A stretch of 48,859 bases of DNA from Minisyncoccota bacterium (lineage in GTDB: Bacteria > Patescibacteriota > Minisyncoccia > Phycocordibacterales > UBA9973): assembly GCA_041907605.1 (NCBI GenBank), contig JAYRGZ010000005.1, positions 1-48,859 on the forward strand, written 5' to 3'. Of the stretch, positions 24,578-38,182 are shown piece by piece (the stretch's first letter is position 1; each line of letters starts with the position of its first letter). Made by a program: the position numbers and the translations under genes. A model generated the notes under the pieces. It worked only from the letters and a program-made list of their open reading frames with translations, was not told where the DNA came from and searched no databases.

Positions 24578-25054
24578 ATGAATCAGGAGAAAATCCAAAA
24601 CATAATAATGGATTTTATTGCAAAAAGTGGCCTACATAACCGCGAGGTACTTTTTGAGCTTTCAGAAGACGGCAAGACTCTTTGGTGCAAAATGTATTCT
24701 GATGATGGACATCTATTAATTTATAAAAACGGAGAAGCACTGGCCTCAATTAATCACATAATCCACAAAATTATTGAGAAAGAAATTGGAGAAGGAGAAG
24801 ATCCAGGGATCTCTGTAATTTTTGATGTAAATAATTTCCAAAAGAAAAAAGTTGATAGCTTGAAGACAATTGCTCACATGATGGCAGAACGAGCGCGCTT
24901 CTTTAAATCCAGCGTCGAGGTGGATCCTATGCCACCATTTGATCGAAGAATAATTCATGAGTTTCTATCTGAGATACCAGACATCGAAACAGAATCCACT
25001 GGTGTGGGTCCACATCGACGTGTTGTTATAAAATATCGCGATACCACTATTTAA
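24578..25054 (+). CDS. jag: Jag/KhpB-like RNA-binding protein (KH plus R3H)
   Basis: C-terminal R3H-type motif (PPFDRRIIHEFLSE...GVGPHRRVVI). Position after yidC is conserved. Confidence 0.8.
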   Translation: MNQEKIQNIIMDFIAKSGLHNREVLFELSEDGKTLWCKMYSDDGHLLIYKNGEALASINHIIHKIIEKEIGEGEDPGISVIFDVNNFQKKKVDSLKTIAHMMAERARFFKSSVEVDPMPPFDRRIIHEFLSEIPDIETESTGVGPHRRVVIKYRDTTI

Positions 25055-26406
25055 TTAGCCGGAGAAACTACTGGTTCTTCTATCGTAGGCGTTACCCTTA
25101 AGTCGTATTCCCAAAGAATACTGCTTTTTTTATCCACAAAAAACAAGTATGAAAGTGTTGGATCAACTTGGAGTTTTGTACCGTCAACAGTGGTACCCGT
25201 AATACTTGAAGGATTAAACAATACATTAGTTGTTATACTATCCCCTATTGTTATTTTCCAAAAAGAATCATTAAAACCTACAAGGCCCTGGTACCAACTA
25301 TCTGGATAAATACCAGGAGATAGTGCATCAGGTACAGCACAAAATACTGCGCTACTATCTGCTACCCAAACACACTTTTCAGGAAGTGTTTTTAATCCAA
25401 TATTTGTAGTAATTCTTGTGGAAATATCGTATACGTATGTTTCAATTGTATTTCCTGTCGTTTGTGAGTATAAAACCTTTTTCCCGTCTGGTGAAACAAG
25501 AGTTGTCAGTCCATAAATATCACCAAGCGTACGGACATTGGATTTTGTAGTTGTGTCTAATATATATAAATAACCAGTACTGTAACCCGATGCTTTTGTT
25601 GTGAGAGCAACTTTTTTGGAATCAATCCACTGTGATAACCATTCATAATAGGGTGATGTGAACACATCTATTTTTTTTGTTCCGTCAATATTTGCAGTGC
25701 TGCCGACGACATTTCCCGTTAAATAAGAAAGATAAAATATTTTTTTGGAGTCCGGAGAAACACTCAAATCCAAAATATTCTGAGGCAAAAAAGATCCAGA
25801 AAGTTCTAGATTTTGTTCTACTAAACCCAGAGTGTCTTTTGGAATATTTGCGAAGTATGTATCGATTGTTTTATTGTCTTCATCCAAATACCTTAGAAGT
25901 GTTTGTGTGGCTGAGTTGCCATAAAAAGATTCGTAAACTCTAGGAATTGTTGTATTCGTTATACGAGAATCTTTTAATGTATCAGCAAAAATATCAAAGA
26001 TATTTGCTGTAGCTTTTTCTCCGTATCTTACAGCTAAAACCTTCTCTGTTTTAGGTACACTTACAGTAGATGTACCCTGATCCACGGTCACTTGTGGTGT
26101 TGTCTCAATATATCTTTCCTTATCAAAAATTACATATCCAGAAACTGGATTATTAGATAGCTGGTGAAGTTTTACAACCTCAGGCGTAGGTTCTGGCTCT
26201 GGTGTTGGCTCTGGTTCTGGAGCTGGAGTCGGTTTATTTGCTTCGTCTATCTCACCCCCTTTCCCGAAAGGAAAAAAATCTTTGAGCGTAGTTGCTACAT
26301 TGCCAGTATCTGTACCATTTTTTTGAGAAAAAAAGTAAAAATATGTACCGATTCCTAAGATTAGTATAAGTATAATTATTAATATGAGAATTAATTTTCT
26401 AGACAT
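25051..26406 (-). CDS. Membrane-anchored beta-propeller-like protein (TolB/PD40-like repeats), T4SS-like locus gene 10
   Basis: N-terminal TM segment (LILILIIILILILGIG), PEPEPTPEPEPTPE linker, and repeated SPD(S/G)KK(I/V)(F/L)Y motifs. Confidence 0.6.
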   Translation of the reverse strand: MSRKLILILIIILILILGIGTYFYFFSQKNGTDTGNVATTLKDFFPFGKGGEIDEANKPTPAPEPEPTPEPEPTPEVVKLHQLSNNPVSGYVIFDKERYIETTPQVTVDQGTSTVSVPKTEKVLAVRYGEKATANIFDIFADTLKDSRITNTTIPRVYESFYGNSATQTLLRYLDEDNKTIDTYFANIPKDTLGLVEQNLELSGSFLPQNILDLSVSPDSKKIFYLSYLTGNVVGSTANIDGTKKIDVFTSPYYEWLSQWIDSKKVALTTKASGYSTGYLYILDTTTKSNVRTLGDIYGLTTLVSPDGKKVLYSQTTGNTIETYVYDISTRITTNIGLKTLPEKCVWVADSSAVFCAVPDALSPGIYPDSWYQGLVGFNDSFWKITIGDSITTNVLFNPSSITGTTVDGTKLQVDPTLSYLFFVDKKSSILWEYDLRVTPTIEEPVVSPAN

Positions 26407-26408
26407 TT

Positions 26409-27497
26409 TTACTGAATGATCACTTTTATACCACTAAACATGTATGGGGCGAGTAATACTAGATCATCGTTGAACATTCTAATACATCCATTTGTTGTTC
26501 CCAAAGTATTGTTTTGGTTTGAGTGAAATCCTATAGAACGATTTACACCACCCAGGGTTATGCCTGTATTTATAAAGGCTGCTCCAAAATTATAATATGA
26601 ATCACTATATGCTAATACCCCACTGTTTTGATCCTTTGCTATACGCCGGTCGCTTGATATATAGCTTGTACCCTTTGGAGTTCTGCTATCACCTAAAGAG
26701 GGTTTTGGGCTACCGTTTGGGTCAGATACTCCCTTGTACCCAATGTTTATTGGCACAGTTACTGTTTTTACCTCAGTCCCTTTTATTGCATGAAACAGTG
26801 CTTTATTTGATGCGCTATTAGGAGCGACAGCGGTAATTGTTATTGTATCGATTTTTCCACCGCTTTTTAAGAAATCTGAAAAATCACTAACACCCGTACT
26901 TGCTTGTGGGCTAGTGAAAGAGCCCTTCATCGCAAAAGGGTTACCAGAATTACCAGTTGAAGAAGGTAGGGTCCCGTTTACGGGTGGGTTTTGTGCCATT
27001 TGTTCTGTAAATTTATAATTTGTCTCATCTAAATTAACCACTATGTTTTGTGGGACAACAGAAGAAAAATTAATATCAAGTAGGTGTGGATTTATGGTGT
27101 TAAGAATTAAATATGCTCCTAAGGCTAGAATTAATCCACCCACAGCCCTAGTTACGGTTTCCTTACCTCCCTCCTTGCCTGATACGGCGTCTGTAGACAT
27201 ATATTGTACTCCACCCAAAATTATCATTATCACAGCCAGGATACCTATAATCCCCATTATTATTTTAAATATTGTTTTTATATATCCAGGCAAGTCGTTT
27301 AGATCAATCTGTGTAATATCACTTCCCCCATTTGGGTTCGGTAGTGGCTCCAGTAAACAGTATTGTCCATCAGGACAATTTACAGTAGACGATGGTTGTG
27401 GAGTTTGTGGTGTAACTGTTTGGATTTGAGCAGAAACAATCGTATAGCCAGCAAGTAGTTGTATAAAAAATGTAATAATTATTATGAATTTTTTCAT
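26409..27497 (-). CDS. Fusion protein: signal peptide plus VirB2/TrbC-type T4SS pilin-like two-TM module plus C-terminal YkuD L,D-transpeptidase-fold domain
   Basis: Pilin-like region: LLEPLPNP...IKTIFKIIMGIIGILAVIMIILGGVQYM...AVGGLILALGAYLILNTINPHLL. YkuD signature: TPKGTSYI ... IGFHSNQNNTLGTTNGCIRMFNDD, with GCIRMF encoded at about 26472-26489. Confidence 0.65.
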   Translation of the reverse strand: MKKFIIIITFFIQLLAGYTIVSAQIQTVTPQTPQPSSTVNCPDGQYCLLEPLPNPNGGSDITQIDLNDLPGYIKTIFKIIMGIIGILAVIMIILGGVQYMSTDAVSGKEGGKETVTRAVGGLILALGAYLILNTINPHLLDINFSSVVPQNIVVNLDETNYKFTEQMAQNPPVNGTLPSSTGNSGNPFAMKGSFTSPQASTGVSDFSDFLKSGGKIDTITITAVAPNSASNKALFHAIKGTEVKTVTVPINIGYKGVSDPNGSPKPSLGDSRTPKGTSYISSDRRIAKDQNSGVLAYSDSYYNFGAAFINTGITLGGVNRSIGFHSNQNNTLGTTNGCIRMFNDDLVLLAPYMFSGIKVIIQ

Positions 27498-27498
27498 C

Positions 27499-28491
27499 TT
27501 ATTTTAAATTAATTTTTATTATCTCTTTACTTGCTTGGAATAATTTTGAAATATTCTTTATTTCAAGCGAAATATCTGATACACCTACACCACCACTCTT
27601 TATTGTCAGAATATTTTTTGTTTCAGGAACTGGAATAACTGAGTTGTTAATTTTCCATGTATATTGAAGGTCTCGAGACAACTTATTGCCCGGTGAAAAG
27701 AAAAATGGTTCTGCAACAATGGTCTTTTCACCACTATCTATTAAAAAACCATTCTCCAGAGTCTTTTCGTATTTTATACCAAGGAGAGGATCTTTCTCGT
27801 AGAATAGGATTTTGGGAGTGTAAGGTTTTAGATTTATTGTTTTTTTTGCAACACTACCCGTTGTTGTGTTTGTAGCCACAACACTGAATTGTTCTATTGG
27901 ATTAAGATAATTTAGTTTTATATTGATACTGTTTTTGTTATACCCAGAGGCGTCTTGTAAACTATTAAAATTCTTTTTCCAATTGTATATGACACCGCTT
28001 TGTTGTGTAGATGTAGAAAATACAGGCATGGCAACTATTTTAATAATACCCTCTGAACCCGGTAATGATTTACCACGATAAAATGGTGGCACTGTAGAAT
28101 CGATTGCTTGCCACAAGAGATCTACCTGGGATGGTTTAATTATTATTTGTTTTGAGAGAGAGCTTGAGCCAAAAACTATCTTGGCTACCACTGTCTTAGA
28201 TGCCCCAGGCCCAGGAGCGTCTAGGCTAAATTGTTTCGCCCCTACACCCGCAAGGGCAGAACTACCATTAACAATCCAAGTTATTGTTGCATTATTTAGG
28301 TCAATAGCGTAACTGACTAGTTTGATTGTTACACTTTTATACGGTTCAGGTACGTCTGGAACAGTTTCAATAGCGATATCTGATTGCACCAACTGAGCTA
28401 GTGCCAAATAAGGATAAGTATATAGTGATAATATTACTATTCCGAAAAAAAAGAGCTTCTTTACTTTGTAGATGAAAGACCATAGTTTCAT
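27499..28491 (-). CDS. Exported beta-rich protein with three internal Ig-like repeats (hypothetical), T4SS-like locus gene 8
   Basis: Signal/anchor KKLFFFGIVILSLYTYPYLALAQ. Recurring ...(T/N)W(I/K)(V/K/I)N... segments occur about 95 aa apart. Confidence 0.6.
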   Translation of the reverse strand: MKLWSFIYKVKKLFFFGIVILSLYTYPYLALAQLVQSDIAIETVPDVPEPYKSVTIKLVSYAIDLNNATITWIVNGSSALAGVGAKQFSLDAPGPGASKTVVAKIVFGSSSLSKQIIIKPSQVDLLWQAIDSTVPPFYRGKSLPGSEGIIKIVAMPVFSTSTQQSGVIYNWKKNFNSLQDASGYNKNSINIKLNYLNPIEQFSVVATNTTTGSVAKKTINLKPYTPKILFYEKDPLLGIKYEKTLENGFLIDSGEKTIVAEPFFFSPGNKLSRDLQYTWKINNSVIPVPETKNILTIKSGGVGVSDISLEIKNISKLFQASKEIIKINLK

Positions 28492-28533
28492 GTCTACATA
28501 TTATATACCAAATAAGCCCCATCAAAAACAGGG

Positions 28534-30369
28534 CTATTTACCAGTTGTTGCACTCTCTAAATCCTCCTTTGCTTTTTTGATTGCAAGGATCTGTGAAGGA
28601 TCCGATGTGATTATTTGTTCTTCTGTGTACGATGCTATGATTTTTATTGCTACGTGTTTTAGTCCTGCAAAGAATATTCCCTCACCCACACCAGATTCAA
28701 GCAGAAGATATTTTTCCTCGTCTGTGAGATGAAAGGTTTCTTGAACCTTATCAATCGAACTTGGAGATTGCTTAAGAAGTATCTGAATTGATGAGTTTGT
28801 CACAATTGGCACACCGTACTGGCTTTTCATGAAGTCGTCGATATTTTGAGTAATTGTAGATAGTCCCAAATAATATTTTCTACCACGTTTAGCAATACTA
28901 TAAAGAAATGATGCAGTATCCTCAGACTTCATCATAATCCAAGCCTCATCCACTACTAAAAGTCGCTTCTTTAGGTTTTTTCTTATTGCGTTCCAAATAA
29001 AGTGAGTAACAATATACATTGCTACGGGTTTCAATTCATCCTCCATGTCACGAATTGAAAAGACAATTAGTTTCTTATTGATGTCTACATTTGATGGCTG
29101 ATTGAGAAACGTTGCCCAAGATCCCTTGGTGTACTTTGATAGTCTCGCTAATATTGAATCTGTTCCCTGCATACCAGCTAGTACCATTTCCAAATCAGAG
29201 AGAAGCGGTGGCTCAATATTAGAAAAGTCAGACTCGGGAGTTATATCTTTCAATGCATACGTTTCAGATATTGCTCTATCAATCACCGAATCTTCTTCTG
29301 GCGTAAGACCCCCGAGCATTATACGAAACAATCCCACAAGACTTATGACGTTTGAGCGAAGTACATCAGCAGCAGTTTCATCCTCTCGTGGCATTGGCAG
29401 ATCGAAAGGATTTATATGATGATCTGATGAAAGAGCAATGTTGAAGTATCTTCCTCCTACTGCTTCTGCTAAATATTCGTATTCTCTTTCGGGATCAATT
29501 ACTATTACGTCCGTATCAAACATAAGAGTTCTCAAAATCTCTAATTTAGTAGTGAAGGATTTACCTGATCCAGAGGTTGCAATTGTAACTGAATTGTAAT
29601 TTTCTAGAGAGAAACGATCGAAAATAATTAAGGATGAGTTGTGTCTGTTTATACCATATAGAATTCCCTTGTCTGAAGTAAGGTCAAATGAAACAAATGG
29701 GAAAATTGAGGATAATGGTTCAGAATTTAGTTTCTGATGGACGTTTATCAGGTCTGTTCCAATTGGTATTACACTCTTTAAACCATCTTCTTGTTGGAAT
29801 AATGCTGGTTTTAGATAAACAAGTTTTGCCTCAAGGATTGATTTGATCTCGTTCTCCGTTTTGTATAGTTCCGTCTCATTGTCAGCATAGATTGTAATAT
29901 AAAGTCCAACATCAAACATTTTCTCTTGAGCTTGTTGTAGTGAGTCACGAAGAGATTCTAGATCACGAAAAGCAGTATCAAGCATTGGATCACGCACTAG
30001 GCCTTTTGATTCACGTACATTAATCTGACTTTGAACTTCCGCAACTTTTTTCTGGAACTGTCTGAGTATCTTTGTGGTCTCAATAGGATGAATAAATATT
30101 GAAACATCAAAAATTTTATCCAGATTAATAATAGGTGAAAACCAATTATCTGATAGAAATCTTGGATATGAAATAACGAAGAATGTACGAGCGAGTTTGT
30201 CTCCTAGGTTTAGCGTTTTAGGCTCAACCCTTATTGCAGATGGTGCAATGATATCGCGGAACTCAAGTGTAGCCGCCTGGTAGATCTCTGATGGTAATAC
30301 AGGTAAAATTCCCTCAGTACTTCCACTTTTCTTTTTCTTTCCCCCAAATAATGAATCAAATATTCCCAT
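28534..30369 (-). CDS. virB4: VirB4/TrbE/PrgJ-family type IV secretion ATPase
   Basis: The N-terminal domain RDIIAPSAIRVEPKTLNLGDKLARTFFVISYP is typical of Gram-positive VirB4. Walker A TIATSGSGKSF is at about 29556-29582. Walker B is RLLVVDEAW. Confidence 0.9.
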   Translation of the reverse strand: MGIFDSLFGGKKKKSGSTEGILPVLPSEIYQAATLEFRDIIAPSAIRVEPKTLNLGDKLARTFFVISYPRFLSDNWFSPIINLDKIFDVSIFIHPIETTKILRQFQKKVAEVQSQINVRESKGLVRDPMLDTAFRDLESLRDSLQQAQEKMFDVGLYITIYADNETELYKTENEIKSILEAKLVYLKPALFQQEDGLKSVIPIGTDLINVHQKLNSEPLSSIFPFVSFDLTSDKGILYGINRHNSSLIIFDRFSLENYNSVTIATSGSGKSFTTKLEILRTLMFDTDVIVIDPEREYEYLAEAVGGRYFNIALSSDHHINPFDLPMPREDETAADVLRSNVISLVGLFRIMLGGLTPEEDSVIDRAISETYALKDITPESDFSNIEPPLLSDLEMVLAGMQGTDSILARLSKYTKGSWATFLNQPSNVDINKKLIVFSIRDMEDELKPVAMYIVTHFIWNAIRKNLKKRLLVVDEAWIMMKSEDTASFLYSIAKRGRKYYLGLSTITQNIDDFMKSQYGVPIVTNSSIQILLKQSPSSIDKVQETFHLTDEEKYLLLESGVGEGIFFAGLKHVAIKIIASYTEEQIITSDPSQILAIKKAKEDLESATTGK

Positions 30370-30370
30370 A

Positions 30371-31018
30371 TTATTGTGTTGGCACTTTTATTGATCCGGT
30401 AGTTTCTCCAGGATTAAATATTTTATAGAATAATTCTATTGCCTCCTCGGTTCCTAGCTGTACCGTGCGTACTCCTACACGGGATAACCCCTGTTGAACT
30501 ACACCGATACGCTGTTCAAGTTGGGTACGTTTTTCCTCAAATTCATATATGCTGTCTTTTTTCTTCTCCTCTGTTTTTTGTTTTGAGCCGAAAAGCCCTT
30601 TGCTTATTGTTCCTTGTGTGGATAGTGGTGCTGCGCTATATGGAACCACAACAATAAAACTTTTTGTCATTATTGCTACTTGGTCTGTAAAGTCACGAAT
30701 AAACCCCATGTATTCTTTTGTTTGCACCTTCAATAGTGGTTCTGTGAGCTCTTTTAGCCTACCCTCTAGCAAAATTAAATAAGGTCTAATGTCTAATCTC
30801 CGTGACTCCACAACAATTTGAACAGAAAAATCCAACGAATTCAAAAATGTTTGAAATTGTGCAAGTGTTGCGTTTTGCTCGTCAAAGGATTTTAAAGATA
30901 AATTTACAGACGAGGCAAGCAGAAGAGCACGCATACTACCATCTTTTAGTATTACAATTCCATCGCGGACTTCTTTTATTGGTACAAAGTCTTGTGTTGC
31001 AGAAGCGCTAATTGCCAT
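30371..31018 (-). CDS. T4SS-associated protein resembling a free-standing VirB4 N-terminal domain (hypothetical)
   Basis: QDFVPIKEVRDGIVILKDGSMRALLLASSVNLSLKSFDEQ...FSVQIVV recalls the N-terminal fold of Gram-positive VirB4-type ATPases. No NTPase motifs. Stop is 1 nt before virB4. Confidence 0.4.
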   Translation of the reverse strand: MAISASATQDFVPIKEVRDGIVILKDGSMRALLLASSVNLSLKSFDEQNATLAQFQTFLNSLDFSVQIVVESRRLDIRPYLILLEGRLKELTEPLLKVQTKEYMGFIRDFTDQVAIMTKSFIVVVPYSAAPLSTQGTISKGLFGSKQKTEEKKKDSIYEFEEKRTQLEQRIGVVQQGLSRVGVRTVQLGTEEAIELFYKIFNPGETTGSIKVPTQ

Positions 31019-31047
31019 ATGTATAGTATATATTATTTATCATTTTT

Positions 31048-31464: not shown

Positions 31465-31489
31465 ATAGTGTTTATTGTACTATATTTTC

Positions 31490-31526
31490 CCATATAAAGA
31501 ACCGCTTAGAGCGGTTCTTTATATGG
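31490..31526 (-). terminator. 16-bp perfect hairpin overlapping the stop codon of the 251-aa gene (intra-locus terminator or RNA stability element)
   Basis: CCATATAAAGAACCGC-TTAGA-GCGGTTCTTTATATGG. The TAA stop (31506-31508 on the minus strand) lies in the loop. No clear U tract follows on the minus strand. Confidence 0.5.
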
Positions 31527-32261
31527 ATCACTACTTTTCTGCGAAGGATTTACGGGTGGTGTTGGTGTATAAGTCGTTTCTTTTTTGGGCGTACTCACTA
31601 TTCCACCTAGTTTATCTCCTACAATATTTCCAGTACTTGGTGCTGTCGGTGGGGTTGGCATGTTTTTCATAACTCCAGGTGCAGGTGGTACCGGTATTGT
31701 CGGGGTGGTTGGTGTTGTTTGTTTGATTGGATTTAGTATCACCGGCTCGCTCTTAGGCGGATTTTCTATACCACTTATAGCATCTAGACGACTTTCAATA
31801 TTAGCAGGCGCTTTTGTCTCAGTATTACTCTCTATAGAGATACCAGCTTTCGCAAGAATTTGTGTTCCAGTGTCTGTTGGTTTTGTTTCTGTTCCTCGTG
31901 GTGCTTCTGTGTTTGCTTTTGCCTCGTATACTTTTTTTAGGGACTCTCTTATTGGCACAAAGACTTGATCACTAATATCTTTCACTAATCCGTCAATCAT
32001 TTTATCGTCATCAATTTTCAACTCCACCTGCAATTCATCTCTGAAATCATCTGGAGGAGTCATACCTAAAAGCACCATTGTTGTCTCTAATTCAATTGTA
32101 CCCAACTGCTCGTATGTTAGTTTGTTTTTCTTTGCTATTTCGTATAGTTTTAGCTGGTACTCGCTCGAAGTAATGACACCCTGTATGTCTTCGGGAAGTA
32201 GAGAGAAACGTTTTTGCATTTCTATTTTTACATCTTCAAATTGGTCTTGTTCTTCTGCCAT
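31506..32261 (-). CDS. Hypothetical protein with acidic N-domain and Pro/Thr-rich C-terminus, T4SS-like locus gene 4
   Basis: 251-aa ORF with no signal peptide. The C-terminal half is rich in P/T (PTTPTIPVPPAPG...). Confidence 0.55.
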   Translation of the reverse strand: MAEEQDQFEDVKIEMQKRFSLLPEDIQGVITSSEYQLKLYEIAKKNKLTYEQLGTIELETTMVLLGMTPPDDFRDELQVELKIDDDKMIDGLVKDISDQVFVPIRESLKKVYEAKANTEAPRGTETKPTDTGTQILAKAGISIESNTETKAPANIESRLDAISGIENPPKSEPVILNPIKQTTPTTPTIPVPPAPGVMKNMPTPPTAPSTGNIVGDKLGGIVSTPKKETTYTPTPPVNPSQKSSDPYKEPL

Positions 32262-32295
32262 ATATTAGTTTTATTATATCATGCACATTATTTTT

Positions 32296-35019
32296 TTAAT
32301 GATGTCCACCACCCCCACCATGATCGCCCCCATGGGAATCGTGTCCACTACTACCACCGCCCCCGCCACTACTTTTACCAAAACCCTTAAAAGCGTCAAA
32401 GAACTTACTAACAGGAGGTTTGTATTTTGAATTTACACTATGAATTTTGTGTGTATCATCGCTTGCAATATGTACCCCCTCAGAGAAAATTTTACCACCA
32501 GCTAAATCAGTGTTTAGCTTTAGGTTGATTCCAGGTACTGTAGCTGTGTCAATTCTCCTTCCTAGGTCTTTAAACATACCTTGCATAGGTTTTAGAACTC
32601 CGCCGTGTAAAGCCCCACCGATTGAACCTACCAAGGCTCCCGCCAATGCTGTTGGTATTGCTGTTACTCCACCAGCTATTCCAGCGGCTCCACCGACAAT
32701 TGCACCGCCCTTCATCCCCTGTACCACAGCACGTGTGAGTCTCCTCATATATCTCTCAGTCTGTAGACCATTAGTCGATGCCACGTCAGTGTTTACATGA
32801 CCAAGTCTATTTACGTTACCAAACTGATCTCTCGTCTCTCCATGATACTCGTAACCACTCTTTTTCATTTGTGAAGAGAAGTATTCTTTTGCGCGAGCCT
32901 TCTTTATGTTTTCTACGGCCTTTTCATTTTGTGCAATTGTACCCTCGTAATTTCTTTGTTGTAATCCTGGTACAACACCTGTATCACCGCCGTTTTTAAT
33001 ATGTTCCACATAAGTATTTACTCCACTAATTTGTGCATCTATCGAATCGATTCTTCTTCTTGCTGTTATCGCGGCTGGAGACCCAGGATAACCCATATCT
33101 TTTTGATTTTGAACAATTTGATTTTGTTCCTGTCTTTCTTGTTGTAATCTCGTCTTTAAATCTTGAGCTGTTTCAACATCTCGTTTTCTCGTATCAAGTT
33201 CCTCGCTATGTTGACGGTATTCCTCTTCGTTGTGTCCAAGTAGTTCTGTAAATTTCCTTTCTTTTTCCGCTTGTCTTGCAGTTGCACCAGCTACACCACC
33301 GGCAAGATTTCCTGTGGCAAGCTTACCGAAGCCTCCGGTGTTTATACCCGTAGCGTTACTAAATGCTTGCCCAGCACCAGTCTGTCTTAGATCAAAGCTC
33401 CTATTAGCATTTTTCTGAGCAGTAAGTAATTTATTTTTTGCACCCGCTTGCATTCTCTGGAATTCCGCAGAATTTTTGATTGCATCATCGTTACCTAAAT
33501 GACCTAACTGTGCACGAGTTTGTGCCGTAATTCTTCCCGCCGCAGTGTCTTTGAGACCCTCGTCATTTAATGTTTTCTGAGCCCTGCCACCTATGATTCT
33601 TTGTGCACCAAGAGCAATTCCACCTGTTGCGACCCCAAGAGCGAGTCCAGCTCCGGCACCGAGTACTGCACTACCAGCCTTAACTGCCATTTCCCCAAGT
33701 TGGCCGGAACCTTTTTTGGCATATTCCACCGCTTTCATTAATAGCCCAAGTACTATTAACATAGGTATTATCACAAGCAATATTGTTTGTAACCAACTTA
33801 GGCCCTGGTTGTTGGGGTTTAGTAATGCCAGGAGGCTTCCTTTTGAAAGCATGGCAATTATATACATGAAGAACATGAAAATTGGTGCGGCAAATGCTGT
33901 TGAGAATAGTTTTTTCCACCAACCCTTCCAGTTCATCTCGTCCCCCAGAGAGCCAAAGGGTATTATGTATGTTACAAAAGCAAGTGGAGCAAATATTATA
34001 AGTATCCAAAGCTGGATTAATCTACCCAAGAAACTAAGCCCGGCTATGAAAAATGCCCAAGCAGCGTATGCAAAGATAGCACCGCTTACAAGAATTATAG
34101 AAATTAAAATAGGGGCTGGTACAGAACTCGATTGTCCCGCTATGATTGTTGTCGCTAAAAATAAAGGGATACCAATAACAGCACCAACCCCCGTTGCTGT
34201 CAATGCAGCACCAACAGCCGCGCCACCGATGAGTCCATTTGTAACATTAAAATCTTGTTCCCTATACTGATCCAAAAATTTTGAAGAACCTAATATTTGT
34301 GGTTTGAAAGAACTAGTCACTAATCCGCCAATGTCTTTTTCTTTTACGCCAGTTATATTTTCATTTATTATTGGTTCGTATTGGACTGGTTTTATTGTAC
34401 CGTTAGAGTTTACATTGGTCGTTAGACTTATCTGGTTATAAAACAGAAGAGCCAAAGAATTTGATGCATCTATGATGACCCTCGTAATAAAAAAACTAAA
34501 GTTAATAAATAAGGCAATTATGATAACCGATGCCAGCATTTTTTTTGTATTCACACTATGTAGTTGAAGAATAGTTCCAATTGCAATATACAGCAGAATA
34601 AATATGAACACTATATTTGCCATGTCTCTAACTAATCCCCACCCAAAAACCAGAAAATTTTCCGCTGCTGCGTATAGCTGGGAACTTAGTGTGAGGCCAG
34701 CAAGGGCATTAAAGAAATTTGCGCTTACGCCCAGGAGCCAAGAAGGAAATGAATAGAAGATATAGTATAAGAGCAAAACAACACAGTCGGTAAAGTTTGC
34801 CCTTATTATAGATTCACAACCAATACTATCTAATAAACCATTTTGAGAACTATCTGAAGTACTGGATGTGGAGGCTGGATTGTTGCTCCCCTCAGTGTTT
34901 ATGGTCGCATCTGGACCACCAACTGATATTGTATCTGCGTGAGTAGTATTAAAACCCAAAGGGGCGAAAACCCCTGTGAGTATTAATGCTATGAAAAATG
35001 TGACGATACTTTTTTTCAT
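32296..35019 (-). CDS. VirB6/TrbL-like polytopic membrane protein with ~430-aa C-terminal extension and Gly/His tail
   Basis: A signal peptide is followed by at least 8 hydrophobic segments (residues ~80-470), as in Gram-positive VirB6 analogues. After these come Gly-rich and coiled segments, and the protein ends GGGGGSSGHDSHGGDHGGGGGHH. Confidence 0.55.
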   Translation of the reverse strand: MKKSIVTFFIALILTGVFAPLGFNTTHADTISVGGPDATINTEGSNNPASTSSTSDSSQNGLLDSIGCESIIRANFTDCVVLLLYYIFYSFPSWLLGVSANFFNALAGLTLSSQLYAAAENFLVFGWGLVRDMANIVFIFILLYIAIGTILQLHSVNTKKMLASVIIIALFINFSFFITRVIIDASNSLALLFYNQISLTTNVNSNGTIKPVQYEPIINENITGVKEKDIGGLVTSSFKPQILGSSKFLDQYREQDFNVTNGLIGGAAVGAALTATGVGAVIGIPLFLATTIIAGQSSSVPAPILISIILVSGAIFAYAAWAFFIAGLSFLGRLIQLWILIIFAPLAFVTYIIPFGSLGDEMNWKGWWKKLFSTAFAAPIFMFFMYIIAMLSKGSLLALLNPNNQGLSWLQTILLVIIPMLIVLGLLMKAVEYAKKGSGQLGEMAVKAGSAVLGAGAGLALGVATGGIALGAQRIIGGRAQKTLNDEGLKDTAAGRITAQTRAQLGHLGNDDAIKNSAEFQRMQAGAKNKLLTAQKNANRSFDLRQTGAGQAFSNATGINTGGFGKLATGNLAGGVAGATARQAEKERKFTELLGHNEEEYRQHSEELDTRKRDVETAQDLKTRLQQERQEQNQIVQNQKDMGYPGSPAAITARRRIDSIDAQISGVNTYVEHIKNGGDTGVVPGLQQRNYEGTIAQNEKAVENIKKARAKEYFSSQMKKSGYEYHGETRDQFGNVNRLGHVNTDVASTNGLQTERYMRRLTRAVVQGMKGGAIVGGAAGIAGGVTAIPTALAGALVGSIGGALHGGVLKPMQGMFKDLGRRIDTATVPGINLKLNTDLAGGKIFSEGVHIASDDTHKIHSVNSKYKPPVSKFFDAFKGFGKSSGGGGGSSGHDSHGGDHGGGGGHH

Positions 35020-35037
35020 TAACTGATTTATATTTAT

Positions 35038-37269
35038 TTAGTTGTCATCTCCAGTGTAGTCATTTAGGTAAGATCTATAAAAATCTTTACATTCAATTTC
35101 AATTTTATCGCCATTATATGGTTGTTGATCCCATGTAAAATCACCAGGATAATATTGAGTTATGTTTGTATTATTTGTGATATCTCCACCGAATAGTCCT
35201 CCATTTTGGGTTTCTCCAGGACCTAATGTTATTGTGTTTTGGAAACGACAGAAAAGTAATTGGGCTGTATCTTTTGCCGCTACCTCGATATTTTGTGCTT
35301 TTTGGGAAATACATTTAGATATAAGCGAGTCTGGATTTGTTGTTTGAAATGCTCTAAAATCTTCTTTTGTGTTTAGTGAGAATTCTGCGTCCGCTGCTGC
35401 AACAGTTGTATCGTTTCCGATCTCATCTTGGATAGATGCATATTGCTTCTTCATGTCAGATAGATTTTGAGAATCAGGTGCAACTACAACTCCATCAACC
35501 AAGGTAGAAGGATGTTCTTCCACCGTACTTTTCATGTCATTCAACAATGCTAAAACCCTTATTTTTTTTGATATAGCGTTTCTAGTTTCATCTAGACGAT
35601 TTCTAAAATAAGAACTTCTCTTTACTTGATCAACAATTAAAGCACTGGAAGAAATGGTTTCTGGTCCCACCATGCTGTCACTGATATATCTTATTTCTGT
35701 ATCAAGATCGTTGTCCAATCTGTTTAATGCCGCAACCGCGTTATCTCCGTTGTTGGTATCATTATCACTTTTCTTGTTTAGTTTTCTGGTTGCTGACTGG
35801 TAGGATTTATTTAATCTTCCTTGCCAACCCTGATCTGGCCCAGGGTTACATTGATCCAAGGTTAGTGTTTTTGCTGGGAAGGTTATGAGTAGGTCTCTAC
35901 TCTTTTCCAAACTATCTAACTCAAGTTGTGTATTATCTATGTCTGATAATAATTGTTCAGATGCTTGACCTAGATTTATCTGATCTTCTAAATCTACACT
36001 GGCCTCTGTCCCCGTGTCCCAGGAGAACCCGCTACCATTTGCAACATATGTGGCATTTGAACCGGGACCACCGGAATCATCTGTGGAGCTCGAAACCGCA
36101 CTACCAATTAAATTATTTAACCCTTGTGTTATCACACCACTTGCTAGGTTTACTATAGAGTCTGCTAGCACACTACCAGTGCCATTTGCCTGTATCGCTT
36201 GCTCGAGTGGGCTAGTCGTAACTTTTTTTATTTGTTCTGAAATTACTGATCCCGGTGTTGTAGTTTCATATCGTGCACAATTATCTACTGCACCATCGCC
36301 AAAAACAACACCAAGGTCATTAAAATACTCACTTCCATCAGCTAAATTACCTAAACCACTATCATATGACGAAACCTCATGACATTGTTCAACTACGTTT
36401 TGATTACTATCAGAATCAGCAGTACAAGTACTTTGGGAAGCGAATGGTCCAACATCAAAATTTTGAAGGTTATCATTTACAGACGTATAATACCAATTTT
36501 GAACGGGAGTACTTGATGTATTACCATCAGTATCTTTATATGCCACGCATTTTTTCATTGATAGAAAACCATTATTTTGCAATAATTCTTCTTTTTGTGT
36601 ATCAATTGCTGTATTTAATCTAGATGCTATCTCATTTTCTGCCAAGATTTTTGCTCCAATAGGATTATTTGCCTGGATCAAGTTTTGGTTAAACCATGTA
36701 CTCCACCCCCCAGTATTAAAATCCTCGTAATAGTTATCTAGTGTTGCTCCAGGATTCACGGCTCCAACAAAATCGTCCAGACTAAATGCACTCTTATTTG
36801 CGAAACTAGAGGAGTATTTTGAAATTAGATCCTTTGCAATTCCTTCTGCAAAAGGAGAACCATATTGTTGTGCCTGAGAAGACACTTCTGTTATAAAAGT
36901 GTTCATTTGTTGATCACCAATACTCTTCAGGAATGATTTTTGATCTCGGACATAAAATGGATCACCCTTAAACCCTGTTGCACCCCAATTTATAAGCTCT
37001 TGGGTCATATTGAGGGTGACCTTTCTAGCTATTTGTGATAAAACTTTTTTGAAAATATCTTTTGCTAAATTTTTGATTTGAACTCCAGCGGTCGTACCAT
37101 TTGATGTTGATGAAAGTAGATTTACAACGAAGTTTACTGGGTCATGAACTATTTGAGCATTTGTAACCCGGGTATTAAATGTAAACAAAAAGACAAAAAC
37201 CAAAATTAAAGATGAGATTTTATTCGCTTTTTTATTACCAAATATTTTCACTAAAATAGGTGTTTTCAT
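35038..37269 (-). CDS. Large exported Cys-containing protein (hypothetical), T4SS-like locus gene 2
   Basis: Signal peptide ...FTFNTRVTNAQ, then IVHDPVNFVVNLL. Many Cys residues are spread through 743 aa. No family recognised. Confidence 0.6.
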   Translation of the reverse strand: MKTPILVKIFGNKKANKISSLILVFVFLFTFNTRVTNAQIVHDPVNFVVNLLSSTSNGTTAGVQIKNLAKDIFKKVLSQIARKVTLNMTQELINWGATGFKGDPFYVRDQKSFLKSIGDQQMNTFITEVSSQAQQYGSPFAEGIAKDLISKYSSSFANKSAFSLDDFVGAVNPGATLDNYYEDFNTGGWSTWFNQNLIQANNPIGAKILAENEIASRLNTAIDTQKEELLQNNGFLSMKKCVAYKDTDGNTSSTPVQNWYYTSVNDNLQNFDVGPFASQSTCTADSDSNQNVVEQCHEVSSYDSGLGNLADGSEYFNDLGVVFGDGAVDNCARYETTTPGSVISEQIKKVTTSPLEQAIQANGTGSVLADSIVNLASGVITQGLNNLIGSAVSSSTDDSGGPGSNATYVANGSGFSWDTGTEASVDLEDQINLGQASEQLLSDIDNTQLELDSLEKSRDLLITFPAKTLTLDQCNPGPDQGWQGRLNKSYQSATRKLNKKSDNDTNNGDNAVAALNRLDNDLDTEIRYISDSMVGPETISSSALIVDQVKRSSYFRNRLDETRNAISKKIRVLALLNDMKSTVEEHPSTLVDGVVVAPDSQNLSDMKKQYASIQDEIGNDTTVAAADAEFSLNTKEDFRAFQTTNPDSLISKCISQKAQNIEVAAKDTAQLLFCRFQNTITLGPGETQNGGLFGGDITNNTNITQYYPGDFTWDQQPYNGDKIEIECKDFYRSYLNDYTGDDN

Positions 37270-37282
37270 TTTTTAAAAATTA

Positions 37283-38182
37283 TTAATAAGGGTTGTAAAT
37301 CATTTTTTGAAATTCTTCAAAAGCTATATTAACTTCTGCTACAACTGAATCAAATTGTGTTACAGCAGATAAGGTCACTATTGGGTCGATGTTGTATTTT
37401 GTCATATCAGTATATGTAGAGGACAGATGTGCTGTCGCGTTTATAACCATTAGGTGGCTCTTTTGTGAACCTTCTGGCACTGTAACTTTTAGCATTTGCT
37501 CGTATATGTTCTTGTATTTTAGACTAAGTGTCTCCAATTCTTTTATCCCTGTCGGTGTGCCTATTAATTCTGGTATTCTATAAGCGATAGTCAGGTCCTC
37601 TCCTTTTACAGGATATTTTTTAAAAATTCCATCCAGGGTTATTAGATAGGTTTCCTTTTTGTTGGCGGTGTATTCTTCCGTTTTTATGTCAGACATTGAG
37701 TAAACCCTAAGCGGTGGTTTTGAAGCTATGAATTTATTTATCTCACTTATTAATATCTCCGTACTTTGACCATTTAGACTACCAGATTGTTGAAGTGAGG
37801 CTAGAGTTGTGACAACATCCCTAGCCAATTGCTCAGTATTAGTGATAACAGTATCATCATTATTGAATATATTTCCGCCTTTTGTATTAGTAAGTTTACT
37901 TTGGTTGTTTTTTACATTTTGAAAATCACTTAATCCGTCACCGTCTGTATCAACTATTTTCGGATTTGTTCCCCAAAGCGCTTCCTCCCAGTCTTTTAAT
38001 CCATCTCCATCCGTATCTTTTTCAACAACATCTTTCACCAATACAACGCTGTTTTTGTCAGCTTTCGAGGTACTAAATCTGATTTTTCCACCTGCTACGA
38101 AACCTACAATTACTATAAATACTCCACACGAGACAATTATCAATAGGTTTTTTCTAAATTGTTTACTAGGCAGATAATCCAT
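37283..38182 (-). CDS. Membrane-anchored protein with thrombospondin type 3-like Ca-binding repeats, first gene of the T4SS-like locus
   Basis: N-terminal TM segment (LLIIVSCGVFIVIVGFVAGG), then DTDGDGLKDWEE...DTDGDGLSDF. Confidence 0.6.
   Translation of the reverse strand: MDYLPSKQFRKNLLIIVSCGVFIVIVGFVAGGKIRFSTSKADKNSVVLVKDVVEKDTDGDGLKDWEEALWGTNPKIVDTDGDGLSDFQNVKNNQSKLTNTKGGNIFNNDDTVITNTEQLARDVVTTLASLQQSGSLNGQSTEILISEINKFIASKPPLRVYSMSDIKTEEYTANKKETYLITLDGIFKKYPVKGEDLTIAYRIPELIGTPTGIKELETLSLKYKNIYEQMLKVTVPEGSQKSHLMVINATAHLSSTYTDMTKYNIDPIVTLSAVTQFDSVVAEVNIAFEEFQKMIYNPY

What the first reader, a model, noticed from the sequence alone, without database searches (positions are those of the whole stretch)
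25051..38182. Self-contained 10-gene type IV secretion-like locus without coupling protein, relaxase or integrase, wedged between core genes next to the origin
Ten consecutive minus-strand genes are tightly packed, with gaps of 1-3 nt at 26406/26409, 27497/27499 and 30369/30371. Four are recognisable as Gram-positive-style T4SS parts. These are VirB4 (Walker A GSGKS, Walker B LLVVDEAW), a PrgI/VirB3-like protein, a VirB6/TrbL-like polytopic protein, and a VirB2/TrbC-type pilin-like module. The other six have no assignable family, and five of these six carry a signal peptide or TM anchor. They are a TSP3-repeat anchor protein, a 743-aa Cys-rich exported protein, a 251-aa P/T-rich protein (no signal peptide), a 215-aa protein, a 330-aa Ig-like repeat protein and a TolB-like propeller. 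The locus contains no VirD4/TraG-type coupling ATPase, no VirB11, no relaxase, no recombinase and no flanking direct repeats. Its flanks are jag and rsmA. That argues for a chromosomal, non-mobile apparatus rather than a conjugative element. In reduced episymbiotic bacteria such machinery could serve DNA uptake or protein or metabolite exchange with a host cell. Most of the component set is uncharacterised.
Basis: partly seen in the sequence, partly recalled or inferred. Interest (0 to 1): 0.75.

Follow-up and report, generated by a model that had tools for sequence, protein, structure and literature searches.

The report
Chromosomal type IV secretion locus, Paceibacteria
This is a genuine but already published kind of machine, the non-conjugative chromosomal type IV secretion system of ultra-small Patescibacteria, and its one feature not found in the literature searched is a pilin-like subunit whose outer end carries a cell-wall enzyme that differs between closely related species.

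Summary
The ten minus-strand genes at 25051-38182 exist exactly as described. They are flanked by dnaN-dnaA-rnpA-yidC-jag on one side and rsmA-pcrA on the other.

Profile searches confirm:
- a CD1110-family VirB4 ATPase;
- PrgI/VirB3;
- a VirB2-type pilin module;
- at family level, a VirB6-like polytopic protein.

- The 215-aa protein is the detached N-terminal VirB4 domain (TrsD-like) and has no hydrophobic segment.

No coupling protein, relaxase, integrase or att repeat occurs anywhere in the 48.9-kb window. The same block sits between the same core genes in dozens of Paceibacteria/Nomurabacteria species, so it is a vertically inherited chromosomal apparatus and not an ICE.

All of this is already published for Patescibacteria (Wang 2023; Quinonero-Coronel 2025), including the dnaA proximity and the missing relaxase. 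The locus is therefore a new member of a known kind.

One extra result came out of the comparison. The extracellular C-terminus of the pilin-like protein is a swappable cassette: about 20 unrelated classes in 73 species, mostly peptidoglycan-active. It differs even between species whose VirB4 is 97% identical. No paper found in the library searches describes this.

The 743-, 251-, 299- and 451-aa proteins remain unassigned.

The parts
37283..38182 (-). 299-aa bitopic protein: N-terminal TM anchor (residues 8-37), bacterial TSP3 calcium-binding repeats (about 47-105), and an unassigned C-terminal domain of about 190 aa.
   Evidence: Pfam TSP3_bac scores 29.8 bits against a cutoff of 25. One hydrophobic segment. 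Syntenic orthologs occur in 32 or more species at about 28% identity. A PDB profile search found nothing.
35038..37269 (-). 743-aa exported orphan protein. It has a signal-peptide-like N-terminus, a conserved N-terminal half with invariant Cys, Trp and Gly residues, and a helical-bundle C-terminal half.
   Evidence: No Pfam or NCBIfam family. AlphaFold2 gives mean pLDDT 58, with residues 425-735 helical at pLDDT 80-93. Foldseek against the PDB gave nothing better than E 0.12. The gene is syntenic in 43 or more species at about 26% identity.
32296..35019 (-). 907-aa extended VirB6-like polytopic membrane protein. It has a signal peptide, about 7 TM segments within residues 79-470, a long hydrophilic coiled-coil region, one late hydrophobic segment (779-797) and a Gly/His-rich tail.
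   Evidence: The window protein alone gives only Mbov_0396 E 0.003-0.0075. Its orthologs hit MMCAP2_0566 (12/63, best 2.5e-9), Mbov_0396 (8/63, 1.3e-7), CD3337/EF1877 (2) and TrbL_3 (1). Hydrophobicity profile.
31506..32261 (-). 251-aa protein with no hydrophobic segment, so presumably cytoplasmic. It has a conserved N-terminal domain of about 110 aa, a Pro/Thr-rich low-complexity middle, and a near-invariant C-terminal DPY(R/H/K)E motif.
   Evidence: No family assigned. No TM segment. Ortholog alignment A9 has D245, P246 and Y247 invariant or nearly invariant. PDB profile search found nothing.
31048..31464 (-). 138-aa PrgI/VirB3-like small membrane protein.
   Evidence: Pfam PrgI PF12666 scores 36.3 bits against a cutoff of 27. 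One hydrophobic hairpin at residues 32-65. Median identity across species is 52%.
30371..31018 (-). 215-aa detached N-terminal domain of VirB4 (TrsD-like). It is soluble.
   Evidence: NCBIfam Mbov_0397 VirB4 model positions 102-280 at E 7e-9; TrsD at E 3e-5; CD1110 model positions 2-74. A precomputed PF26593 TraC-like hit. No hydrophobic segment. The split is conserved in 77 or more species.
28534..30369 (-). 611-aa VirB4 ATPase of the CD1110 family (C-terminal ATPase part). Walker A is GSGKS and Walker B is LLVVDEAW.
   Evidence: NCBIfam conju_CD1110 scores 392 bits against a cutoff of 325 (model positions 183-732). Pfam P-loop_TraG E 2.4e-28. Motifs read from the translation. It is 79-86% identical in the 80 closest species and 32-35% identical to VirB4 of monoderm plasmids.
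27499..28491 (-). 330-aa bitopic protein: an N-terminal TM helix followed by three tandem Ig/FN3-like beta-sandwich domains.
   Evidence: AlphaFold2 pLDDT 94.1, pTM 0.80. Foldseek returns only generic tandem-Ig matches. All 102 homologs are 'hypothetical' with no Pfam domain. Present in 78 of 80 loci.
26409..27497 (-). 362-aa fusion protein: signal peptide, then a VirB2/TrbC-type pilin hairpin, then an extracellular YkuD L,D-transpeptidase domain.
   Evidence: T4SS_pilin scores 30.0 bits against 26.6, and YkuD 31.9 against 23.4. It is the only pilin-module ORF in the window.
27072..27380 (-). Pilin module (residues 40-142): the conserved YxLLxPLP segment, TM1, a Lys-rich cytoplasmic loop, TM2 and the LNTINP motif.
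   Evidence: Conserved in 63 of 73 orthologs as PF18895. phmmer finds 16,105 cluster representatives at E<=1e-3.
26415..26744 (-). YkuD catalytic domain (residues 252-361) with the FHS...TNGCIRM His/Cys motif. This is the variable cassette position.
   Evidence: Pfam match. The motif is conserved in the 6 YkuD-class orthologs. Other species carry VanY, NlpC/P60, SLT, M15 or amidase domains, or unassigned domains, in this position.
25051..26406 (-). 451-aa bitopic protein: TM anchor, a Pro/Glu/Thr linker, and a conserved extracellular domain with two PD40-like SPDGKK motifs. It is probably a beta-propeller.
   Evidence: PD40 E 0.0012 (below cutoff) and a partial TolB TIGR02800 match at E 1.9e-5. 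Self-hhalign shows only one weak internal repeat. Syntenic in 69 loci at 38% identity. PDB profile search found nothing.

Best explanation
The locus is the Paceibacteria (Nomurabacteria-like) version of the Patescibacteria-clade type IV secretion system. That system is derived from monoderm (MPF_FATA-type) conjugation machinery, has become fixed in the chromosome next to dnaA, and no longer serves conjugation.

Shown here:
- A membrane motor and translocon module: VirB4 split into a 215-aa N-domain and a 611-aa ATPase, PrgI/VirB3, and an extended VirB6-like polytopic protein.
- A single VirB2-type membrane hairpin whose extracellular C-terminus is a peptidoglycan-active enzyme, YkuD in this genome.
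- Five lineage-specific accessory proteins. Four are exported or membrane-anchored: the Ig-like stalk, the probable propeller, the TSP3 protein and the 743-aa orphan. One, the 251-aa protein, is cytoplasmic.
- All ten genes are inherited together between the same core genes.

Inferred:
- The VirB4, VirB3 and VirB6 core forms an ATP-driven channel in the cytoplasmic membrane.
- The anchored Ig, propeller and TSP3 proteins and the exported 743-aa protein form or decorate the part that crosses the wall and S-layer.
- The pilin-anchored enzyme does the VirB1 job of remodelling peptidoglycan around, or in front of, the machine.
- The whole assembly mediates contact-dependent exchange with the host cell on which these episymbionts live. 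Because no coupling protein or relaxase is attached, this is more likely protein export or import of host molecules than DNA transfer.
- By analogy with the Saccharibacteria system, it is probably essential for growth on the host.
For: - Curated-cutoff matches for VirB4, PrgI, the pilin and YkuD.
- The split VirB4 maps contiguously onto single VirB4 models.
- VirB6-like family hits in orthologs.
- The core order VirB6-like, PrgI, VirB4, wall enzyme is the same as in a Clostridium perfringens plasmid that additionally carries MobC, a relaxase and VirD4.
- No T4CP, relaxase, integrase or att repeats in 48.9 kb, and GC content is uniform.
- At least 580 species have a VirB4 relative. The 80 closest are all Patescibacteria MAGs, most labelled Paceibacteria, Nomurabacteria or, in automated records, Saccharibacteria. 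They show the same gene order, and 19 of the 22 full-span loci have all ten genes.
- Across the same genomes VirB4 is 81% identical at the median, against 69% for DnaA and 51% for DnaN, which points to strong purifying selection.
- The hairpin topology puts the enzyme domain outside the cell.
- Literature: the T4SS genes of Southlakia are essential for epibiotic growth and lack coupling protein and relaxase (PMC10633639). The Patescibacteria-wide clade shows dnaA proximity and a missing relaxase (PMC12102498). Both are reviewed in PMC12857230.
Against: - No functional data exist for any Paceibacteria system. Essentiality is extrapolated from a different class (Saccharimonadia), whose locus has separate small pilins and a separate lysozyme.
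- The window protein on its own does not reach any VirB6 threshold.
- No VirB8-like component was found.
- A T4CP may be encoded elsewhere in the genome. The 2025 paper reports many distant T4CP homologs, so DNA transfer cannot be excluded from the window alone.
- YkuD and VanY are not classical lytic enzymes, which weakens a simple 'hole-punching VirB1' reading.
- The VirB4 versus DnaA comparison is biased, because the loci were chosen by VirB4 similarity.
Confidence: 0.8

Rival explanations
1. The locus is a DNA-uptake or DNA-export machine. It would be a T4SS used for competence or DNA import, as in the Helicobacter ComB or Sulfolobus Ced systems, supplying nucleotides or genes to a cell that cannot make them.
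For: - The VirB4 has a partial match to the archaeal DNA-import ATPase CedB (E 3.8e-10).
- Patescibacteria lack nucleotide synthesis (PMC10633639).
- In class ABY1, T4SS loci sit next to comF, recG and radA (PMC12102498).
- pcrA helicase lies directly upstream on the same strand.
- comM is also in the window.
Against: - In Southlakia, competence depends on type IV pili and ComEC. A comEC deletion abolishes transformation without affecting viability, while the T4SS remains essential (PMC12857230 summarising Wang 2023).
- The locus contains no DNA-binding or DNA-processing component.
- The CedB match covers only the generic ATPase core.
- The pcrA-rsmA adjacency is simply conserved core synteny.
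Confidence: 0.1
2. The locus is a self-directed envelope machine. It would export and anchor the cell's own surface proteins or a pilus used only for adhesion, and would remodel its own wall, with nothing passing to or from the host.
For: - Most locus products are Sec-type exported or anchored proteins.
- T4CP-less T4SSs such as Bordetella Ptl export Sec-delivered substrates (PMC12102498; PMC12857230).
- YkuD and VanY are wall-maturation rather than lytic enzymes.
- The system lies among housekeeping genes.
Against: - The rapid exchange of the enzyme cassette between near-identical systems is hard to explain if the target is the cell's own wall, which is presumed to be conserved between such close relatives (an assumption, not tested here).
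- The wider literature ties the system to epibiotic growth.
- No adhesin domains were recognised.
Confidence: 0.08
3. The locus is a decaying remnant of an integrated conjugative element that has lost its mobility genes and has no current function.
For: The closest non-Patescibacteria relatives of the VirB4 are on conjugative plasmids and ICEs of monoderms (32-35% identity). The T4CP and relaxase are missing.
Against: - All ten ORFs are intact and tightly packed.
- The block is syntenic between the same core genes in dozens of species.
- VirB4, the 215-aa domain and PrgI are 81%, 62% and 52% identical across species, as conserved as or more conserved than DnaA and DnaN.
- There is no compositional anomaly and there are no repeats.
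Confidence: 0.02

Closest known systems
Patescibacteria-clade T4SS, as described across the phylum (Quinonero-Coronel et al. 2025, PMC12102498)
   Same: - Chromosomal location.
- VirB4 related to MPF_FATA.
- TrsD-like protein next to VirB4, PrgI/VirB3, a VirB6 homolog and a VirB2-like pilin.
- No relaxase and no nearby T4CP.
- In Paceibacteria, located near dnaA, dnaN, rnpA and ksgA.

The window matches every one of these points.
   Different: The paper does not mention YkuD, TSP3 or PD40 domains, and none of its uses of 'fused' or 'fusion' concerns a pilin joined to a wall enzyme. It treats VirB1 and VirB2 homologs as separate components. Here the only locus-linked pilin module is fused to a wall enzyme, and that enzyme is exchanged between species.
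Southlakia epibionticum (Saccharimonadia) T4SS, SEML1_0006-0019 (Wang et al. 2023, PMC10633639)
   Same: - The order VirB6-like ... PrgI, a roughly 290-aa protein, a 612-aa VirB4, ... wall hydrolase, then an exported Ig-like protein.
- No coupling protein or relaxase.
- PF18895 pilins are part of the cluster.
- Shown to be essential for epibiotic growth.
   Different: - Southlakia has six separate small pilins (103-185 aa) and a separate lysozyme/glucosaminidase protein (SEML1_0006).
- The window has one pilin module fused to YkuD.
- The 330-, 451-, 743-, 299- and 251-aa families were found only in Patescibacteria records; every homolog that carries a lineage name is from a Paceibacteria-type group (Nomurabacteria, Yonathbacteria, Vogelbacteria). 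I did not compare them directly with the Southlakia proteins.
MPF_FATA conjugative T4SS of monoderms (CD1110/CD1115-type, for example Clostridium perfringens plasmid pSXP-169_2, and the Mycoplasma ICE genes Mbov_0395-0397)
   Same: - VirB4 32-35% identical and above the CD1110 family cutoff.
- PrgI immediately upstream of VirB4 and a wall hydrolase downstream.
- The Mycoplasma ICE trio of pilin-like protein, polytopic TM protein and VirB4 gives the best named matches for three of the locus proteins.
   Different: - The conjugative systems carry MobC, a relaxase and a VirD4 coupling protein next to the T4SS, and their VirB4 is a single 783-aa protein.
- The window has none of these. Its VirB4 is split, and the locus is fixed in the chromosome.
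VirB1-type wall hydrolases of T4SSs (for example PrgK of pCF10 and the SLT protein of pSXP-169_2)
   Same: An extracytoplasmic peptidoglycan-active domain encoded just downstream of virB4 and tethered to the membrane. PrgK is cited from the reference list of PMC12102498.
   Different: - Here the membrane tether is a VirB2-like pilin hairpin.
- The enzyme class is not fixed. Among orthologs it is YkuD, VanY, NlpC/P60, SLT, M15, an amidase or an unassigned class.
- It includes enzymes that are not classical lytic enzymes.

Membership tests
Type IV secretion system (VirB4-based), Patescibacteria / MPF_FATA-related clade | VirB4-family ATPase with intact Walker A and B motifs | tested here: met
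   conju_CD1110 scores 392 bits against a cutoff of 325. P-loop_TraG E 2.4e-28. GSGKS and LLVVDEAW are present in the translation.
Type IV secretion system (VirB4-based), Patescibacteria / MPF_FATA-related clade | VirB3/PrgI-like small membrane protein encoded next to VirB4 | tested here: met
   PF12666 scores 36.3 bits against a cutoff of 27. The gene lies two genes upstream of VirB4.
Type IV secretion system (VirB4-based), Patescibacteria / MPF_FATA-related clade | VirB6-like polytopic membrane protein | tested here: inconclusive
   The window protein gives only E 0.003-0.0075 to Mbov_0396 and no Pfam TrbL hit. Its clear orthologs reach MMCAP2_0566 2.5e-9, Mbov_0396 1.3e-7, CD3337/EF1877 7.5e-5 and TrbL_3 0.007. 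The assignment is therefore supported by transitivity and by topology, not directly.
Type IV secretion system (VirB4-based), Patescibacteria / MPF_FATA-related clade | TrsD-like protein or N-terminal VirB4 domain associated with VirB4 | tested here: met
   The 215-aa protein matches Mbov_0397 model positions 102-280 (E 7e-9) and TrsD (E 3e-5), and has a precomputed PF26593 hit.
Type IV secretion system (VirB4-based), Patescibacteria / MPF_FATA-related clade | VirB8-like (NTF2-fold) bitopic protein | tested here: not met
   No Pfam, NCBIfam or PDB-profile match for any locus protein. The 330-aa bitopic protein folds as three Ig-like domains, not as NTF2. The folds of the 299-aa and 451-aa proteins were not predicted. 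Absence is also typical of the published Patescibacteria systems.
Conjugative element (ICE or conjugative plasmid) | Relaxase and type IV coupling protein (VirD4/TcpA) associated with the T4SS | tested here: not met
   None among any of the ORFs of 100 aa or more that were scanned across the 48.9-kb window. The rest of the genome cannot be tested from this window.
Conjugative element (ICE or conjugative plasmid) | Integrase or recombinase, flanking att repeats, a compositional island, and variable insertion sites | tested here: not met
   No recombinase. Only short imperfect chance repeats. GC is 0.35-0.42, like the flanks. The flanking core genes are identical in dozens of species.
VirB2/TrbC-type T4SS pilin (PF18895/PF04956) | Signal peptide followed by two hydrophobic helices joined by a short basic loop, with a match to the pilin profile | tested here: met
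   PF18895 scores 30.0 bits against 26.6, with weaker TrbC, DUF6112 and Mbov_0395 matches. Hydrophobic segments at 3-25, about 71-102 and about 114-136, with an SGKEGGKE loop between the last two. The protein is atypical in being 362 aa with a 220-aa C-terminal domain. Whether it polymerises into a pilus cannot be tested here.
YkuD L,D-transpeptidase (PF03734) | Profile match plus the catalytic His and Cys in the H...(S/T)xGC(I/V)R motif | tested here: met
   31.9 bits against a cutoff of 23.4. FHS...TNGCIRM is conserved in all six YkuD-class orthologs. That this motif is the catalytic one comes from my own knowledge of the family. Enzyme activity was not tested. A single-sequence PDB search returned nothing.

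The most novel reading that the evidence does not exclude
In this Paceibacteria lineage the only T4SS-linked VirB2-like module acts as a carrier for a rapidly exchanged extracellular 'warhead'.

What the data show:
- About 20 unrelated C-terminal classes occur among 73 syntenic orthologs: YkuD, VanY, NlpC/P60, SLT, M15, amidases and several unassigned classes.
- Species whose VirB4 is 94-97% identical carry different classes.
- The DNA similarity breaks off precisely over the 3' part of the gene.

The most novel reading not excluded by the evidence is that these domains act on the host cell wall rather than on the epibiont's own wall. Cassette exchange would then track host wall chemistry. That would make this subunit a host-range determinant, with polymorphic-toxin logic built into a structural T4SS gene.
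Probability: 0.2. Interest if true: 0.75.

Novelty: new member of a known kind. Interest (0 to 1): 0.4.

Why it matters
The Patescibacteria T4SS is one of the few machines experimentally tied to the epibiotic lifestyle of this very large and mostly uncultured group. Its substrate and direction of transport are unknown.

This locus adds little to the general picture. It does give a clean ten-gene parts list for the Paceibacteria version, conserved across dozens of species. It also corrects two assignments: the split VirB4 and the pilin-YkuD fusion.

The swappable wall-enzyme cassette on the pilin-like subunit is a concrete handle for experiments. Recombinant domains could be tested on epibiont and host sacculi. 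Cassette class could also be compared with host identity in co-cultures or in co-occurrence data.

Tried and rejected
1. PDB sequence-profile searches with ortholog alignments of the 330-, 743-, 907-, 451-, 251- and 299-aa proteins found nothing significant.
2. The AlphaFold2 model of the 743-aa protein, built from only 18 homologs, was confident only for its helical C-terminal half, and Foldseek gave no match. A second, profile-based homolog search added only one new sequence.
3. Foldseek on the 330-aa model returned only generic tandem-Ig hits, so no T4SS-specific role can be assigned.
4. A Pfam scan of the 743-aa orthologs was uninformative.
5. I tried to link the unassigned C-terminal cassette classes to known ones by hhalign and by PDB profile searches, without success. 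Reading them as SLT-like (ES...GLFQIN) and LAS/M15-like (H..D, HxH) rests only on motifs and my own knowledge.
6. A single-sequence PDB search with the YkuD domain was empty.
7. A self-hhalign of the 451-aa family did not reveal propeller blades beyond one weak PD40-like repeat.
8. The DnaA-box scan showed no cluster, so the origin was not located.
9. The 17-bp hairpin at the 251-aa stop codon is not conserved in orthologs (8 of 50 have a strong hairpin), so I dropped it as a regulatory element.
10. The promoter scan was no better than shuffled sequence.
11. The ICE interpretation was considered and rejected on synteny, composition and the absence of mobility genes.

Full report
**1. Observation**

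The translations show Walker A GSGKS and Walker B LLVVDEAW in the 611-aa protein.

The flanks are core genes:
- One side: dnaN (20327-21424), dnaA (21623-22981), rnpA, yidC and jag (24578-25054). jag converges on the last gene of the locus and overlaps it by 4 nt.
- Other side: rsmA (38223-39023) and pcrA (39025-40941), on the same strand as the locus.

GC content (0.35-0.42) does not set the block apart from its surroundings.

The rest of the window is housekeeping: polA, holA, tsaE, ruvB, ruvC, tyrS, PBP1A, dsbB, a SpoU methylase and comM. It also holds a PilB-type ATPase, a DUF11 surface protein, a LysM-M23 peptidase and a 1584-aa orphan. No coupling protein, VirB11, relaxase or recombinase is present. 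No att-like repeats bracket the block.

**2. Component assignments**

Matches above curated cutoffs:

| Protein | Family | Score vs cutoff |
|---|---|---|
| 611 aa | CD1110-family VirB4 | 392 vs 325 bits |
| 138 aa | PrgI | 36.3 vs 27 |
| 362 aa | T4SS_pilin | 30.0 vs 26.6 |
| 362 aa | YkuD | 31.9 vs 23.4 |
| 299 aa | TSP3_bac | 29.8 vs 25 |

- **The 215-aa protein is not an unknown membrane protein.** It aligns to positions 102-280 of a VirB4 model whose positions 293-893 are covered by the 611-aa protein. It also matches TrsD and has a precomputed TraC-like Pfam hit. It has no hydrophobic segment. VirB4 is therefore split into two adjacent genes. The split is conserved in 77 or more species and was previously noted as 'TrsD' (PMC12102498).
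- **The pilin-like protein carries a C-terminal YkuD L,D-transpeptidase domain.** Its FHS...TNGCIRM motif is conserved in the YkuD-class orthologs.

The VirB6 assignment is indirect. The 907-aa protein alone reaches only E 0.003 against a Mycoplasma ICE membrane-protein model. Its orthologs reach 2.5e-9 (MMCAP2_0566), 1.3e-7 (Mbov_0396), 7.5e-5 (CD3337/EF1877) and 0.007 (TrbL_3). Its topology is about seven TM segments followed by a long hydrophilic extension. That fits the 'extended VirB6' type described in PMC12857230.

The 330-aa protein was modelled with high confidence (pLDDT 94) as a TM helix plus three beta-sandwich domains. Foldseek gave only generic tandem-Ig matches.

The remaining four proteins stay unassigned:
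- The 451-aa 'propeller' rests on sub-threshold PD40 and TolB hits and two SPDGKK motifs.
- The 743-aa protein is an orphan. Its C-terminal half is predicted with confidence as a helical bundle and it has no structural match.
- The 251-aa protein has no TM segment and a near-invariant C-terminal DPY(R/H/K)E motif.
- The C-terminal domain of the 299-aa protein is unassigned.

**3. Context in other genomes**

A scan of one genome per species found at least 580 stretches encoding a VirB4 relative. The 80 best are all Patescibacteria MAGs (most labelled Paceibacteria, Nomurabacteria or, in automated records, Saccharibacteria), at 79-86% amino-acid identity.

tblastn of all window proteins against these loci shows a recurring order wherever the contig reaches far enough:

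pcrA, rsmA, 299, 743, 907, 251, PrgI, 215, VirB4, 330, pilin, 451, jag, yidC, rnpA, dnaA, dnaN

Of 22 loci that span rsmA to jag, 19 contain all ten genes. The other 3 lack only a detectable 251-aa homolog. The interval measures 12.8-16.2 kb.

Median identities:

| Gene | Median identity |
|---|---|
| VirB4 | 81% |
| 215 aa | 62% |
| PrgI | 52% |
| DnaA | 69% |
| DnaN | 51% |
| RsmA | 52% |

The loci were ranked by VirB4 similarity, which biases this comparison. Even so, the motor is at least as constrained as the core replication proteins. This is a vertically inherited chromosomal machine, not an ICE.

**4. Relation to what is known**

The closest non-Patescibacteria VirB4s are CD1110-family proteins on plasmids of Bacillota and Actinomycetota, at 32-35% identity. 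One of them, a Clostridium perfringens plasmid, has this order: MobC, relaxase, DUF3801, VirD4, two small genes, PrgI, an unsplit VirB4, and an SLT hydrolase. That is the same core order as the window, plus the mobility genes the window lacks.

- Wang et al. 2023 (PMC10633639) identified a T4SS in Southlakia epibionticum that resembles Gram-positive conjugative systems and lacks coupling protein and relaxase. It includes essential pilins and is essential for epibiotic growth.
- Quinonero-Coronel et al. 2025 (PMC12102498) showed a phylum-wide monophyletic VirB4 clade related to MPF_FATA. They catalogued TrsD, VirB3/PrgI, VirB6 and VirB2-like components. They found relaxases in only about 100 genomes and T4CP homologs mostly far from virB4. 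They also noted that in Paceibacteria and Microgenomatia the locus lies near dnaA, dnaN, rnpA and ksgA.
- A 2025 review repeats this (PMC12857230).

The finding is therefore a new member of a known kind.

**5. The pilin-anchored enzyme cassette**

Aligning the 73 syntenic orthologs of the pilin gene shows a conserved N-terminal module. It consists of a signal peptide, the motif YxLLAPLP, TM1, a Lys-rich loop, TM2 and LNTINP. The module is recognised as PF18895 in 63 of 73 orthologs. What follows it varies completely, and total protein length runs from 183 to 774 aa.

Pfam domains recognised in the variable part:

| Domain | Orthologs |
|---|---|
| VanY | 11 |
| NlpC/P60 | 10 |
| YkuD | 6 |
| SLT_2 | 5 |
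| Peptidase_M15_4 | 3 |
| Amidase_5 | 3 |
| Amidase_2 | 1 |
| SLT | 1 |
| SLT_3 | 1 |

Some orthologs also have FN3, TIG or Big domains, partly inserted before the hairpin.

All-against-all BLAST splits the C-termini into about 20 unrelated classes. Several have no Pfam match and no profile similarity to the named classes.

Cassette class is almost independent of VirB4 relatedness:
- The nearest VirB4 neighbour shares the class in 16 of 73 cases, against 5.9 +/- 2.8 in shuffles.
- Mean VirB4 identity is 0.839 within classes and 0.833 between them.
- Pairs with 94-97% identical VirB4 carry different enzymes. For example, L006 has VanY and L007 has YkuD.

At the DNA level L006 and L007 are collinear through VirB4, the Ig-like gene and the pilin module. 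Similarity then disappears over the cassette and resumes inside the next gene.

The window and 71 of 74 related loci contain exactly one pilin-module ORF. A full scan of 1.84 billion cluster representatives with the module alone found 16,105 relatives (3,114 at E<=1e-10). Most of the top 150 are 250-700 aa long. In an independent sample of 120 of them the same enzyme families recur: SLT 8, YkuD 8, NlpC/P60 8, VanY 3, M15_4 2, plus single instances of others.

None of the four library searches or in-paper term searches returned a description of this fusion or its variability. The 2025 paper treats VirB1 and VirB2 homologs separately, remarking only that VirB1 homologs associate with virB4 mainly in Paceibacteria. 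In Southlakia the pilins are small and separate and the lysozyme is a separate protein.

**6. Mechanism**

Shown: a split VirB4 ATPase, PrgI/VirB3 and a VirB6-like protein are encoded together with a VirB2-like hairpin whose extracytoplasmic C-terminus is a wall-active enzyme, with four further exported or anchored proteins, and with one cytoplasmic protein. All are co-inherited.

Inferred:
- The core forms an ATP-driven channel in the membrane.
- The anchored Ig-like, propeller-like and TSP3 proteins and the exported 743-aa protein build or decorate the wall-spanning part.
- The tethered enzyme supplies VirB1-type local wall remodelling.
- The machine serves contact-dependent exchange with a host cell.

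DNA conjugation is unlikely because the mobility genes are missing. DNA uptake is less likely given the comEC result in Southlakia, but it is not excluded.

Whether the enzyme acts on the cell's own wall or the host's is open. Rapid cassette exchange between near-identical systems suggests a variable external target. Against that, the adjacent gene is conserved rather than a matching immunity gene, and YkuD and VanY are not classical lytic enzymes.

**7. Verdict**

Interest is moderate. It rests mainly on the clean Paceibacteria parts list and on the polymorphic pilin-anchored wall-enzyme cassette, which offers a testable handle on host interaction.

Noticed in passing
window 26409-27497; related loci L002-L080 (for example L006:12870-14111 against L007:12889-14244): The C-terminal domain of the pilin-like protein is a swappable cassette. 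About 20 unrelated classes occur in 73 orthologs, mostly peptidoglycan-active. The class differs between species with 97% identical VirB4, and the DNA similarity breaks exactly over the cassette.
   Followed up: yes
proteins P0131 (1382 aa), P0145 (1147 aa), P0147 (966 aa): Some metagenomic proteins contain 9-11 tandem copies of the VirB2-like pilin module in a single polypeptide. These would be fused pilin arrays, rather than the separate pilin genes reported in Saccharibacteria.
   Followed up: no
L007:15626-16675, L009:12862-14616, L043:12863-14050: Three related loci carry a second pilin-module gene on the other side of the propeller gene, so two cassettes sit side by side.
   Followed up: no
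window 40996-45750 (-): A 1584-aa ORF directly upstream of pcrA has no Pfam or NCBIfam match and one internal hydrophobic segment (1015-1036). The region has the most extreme strand composition in the window (AT skew to -0.33, GC skew to -0.26). It is separated from pcrA by a 20-bp-stem hairpin at 40946-40989.
   Followed up: partly
window 31490-31526: A perfect 17-bp inverted repeat with a 3-nt loop spans the last codons (PYKEPL) and stop codon of the 251-aa gene. No T-run follows it. Only 8 of 50 orthologous positions have a comparably strong hairpin, so it is not a conserved element.
   Followed up: yes
window 6643-12879: A PilB-type T2SSE ATPase (11116-12879, +) lies next to a 598-aa unknown (9231-11027, -) and an 836-aa DUF11 surface protein (6643-9153, -). 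These are probably type IV pilus or surface-adhesion genes, about 12 kb from the T4SS locus.
   Followed up: no
window 1669-2202 (+): A DsbB-like disulfide-bond protein is encoded in this reduced genome. That fits the conserved Cys residues found in the exported 743-aa protein, in the first extracellular loop of the 907-aa protein (C68, C79) and in several pilin cassettes.
   Followed up: no
window 46263-47196: Two overlapping ORFs lie on opposite strands here. The + strand ORF (46276-47196) is a LysM-LysM-Peptidase_M23 wall hydrolase. The - strand ORF (46263-46982) has no match and is probably spurious.
   Followed up: partly
related loci L001-L080: Across the same genomes VirB4 is more conserved (median 81%) than DnaA (69%), PcrA (60%, partial), RsmA (52%), DnaN (51%) and YidC (51%). 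The comparison is biased because the loci were selected by VirB4 similarity.
   Followed up: partly
window 20000-23600: GC content drops to 0.28-0.33 around dnaN, dnaA and rnpA. However, consensus DnaA boxes are not clustered there: only one perfect box, at 23054, lies in the dnaA-rnpA intergenic region. The origin itself was not located.
   Followed up: partly
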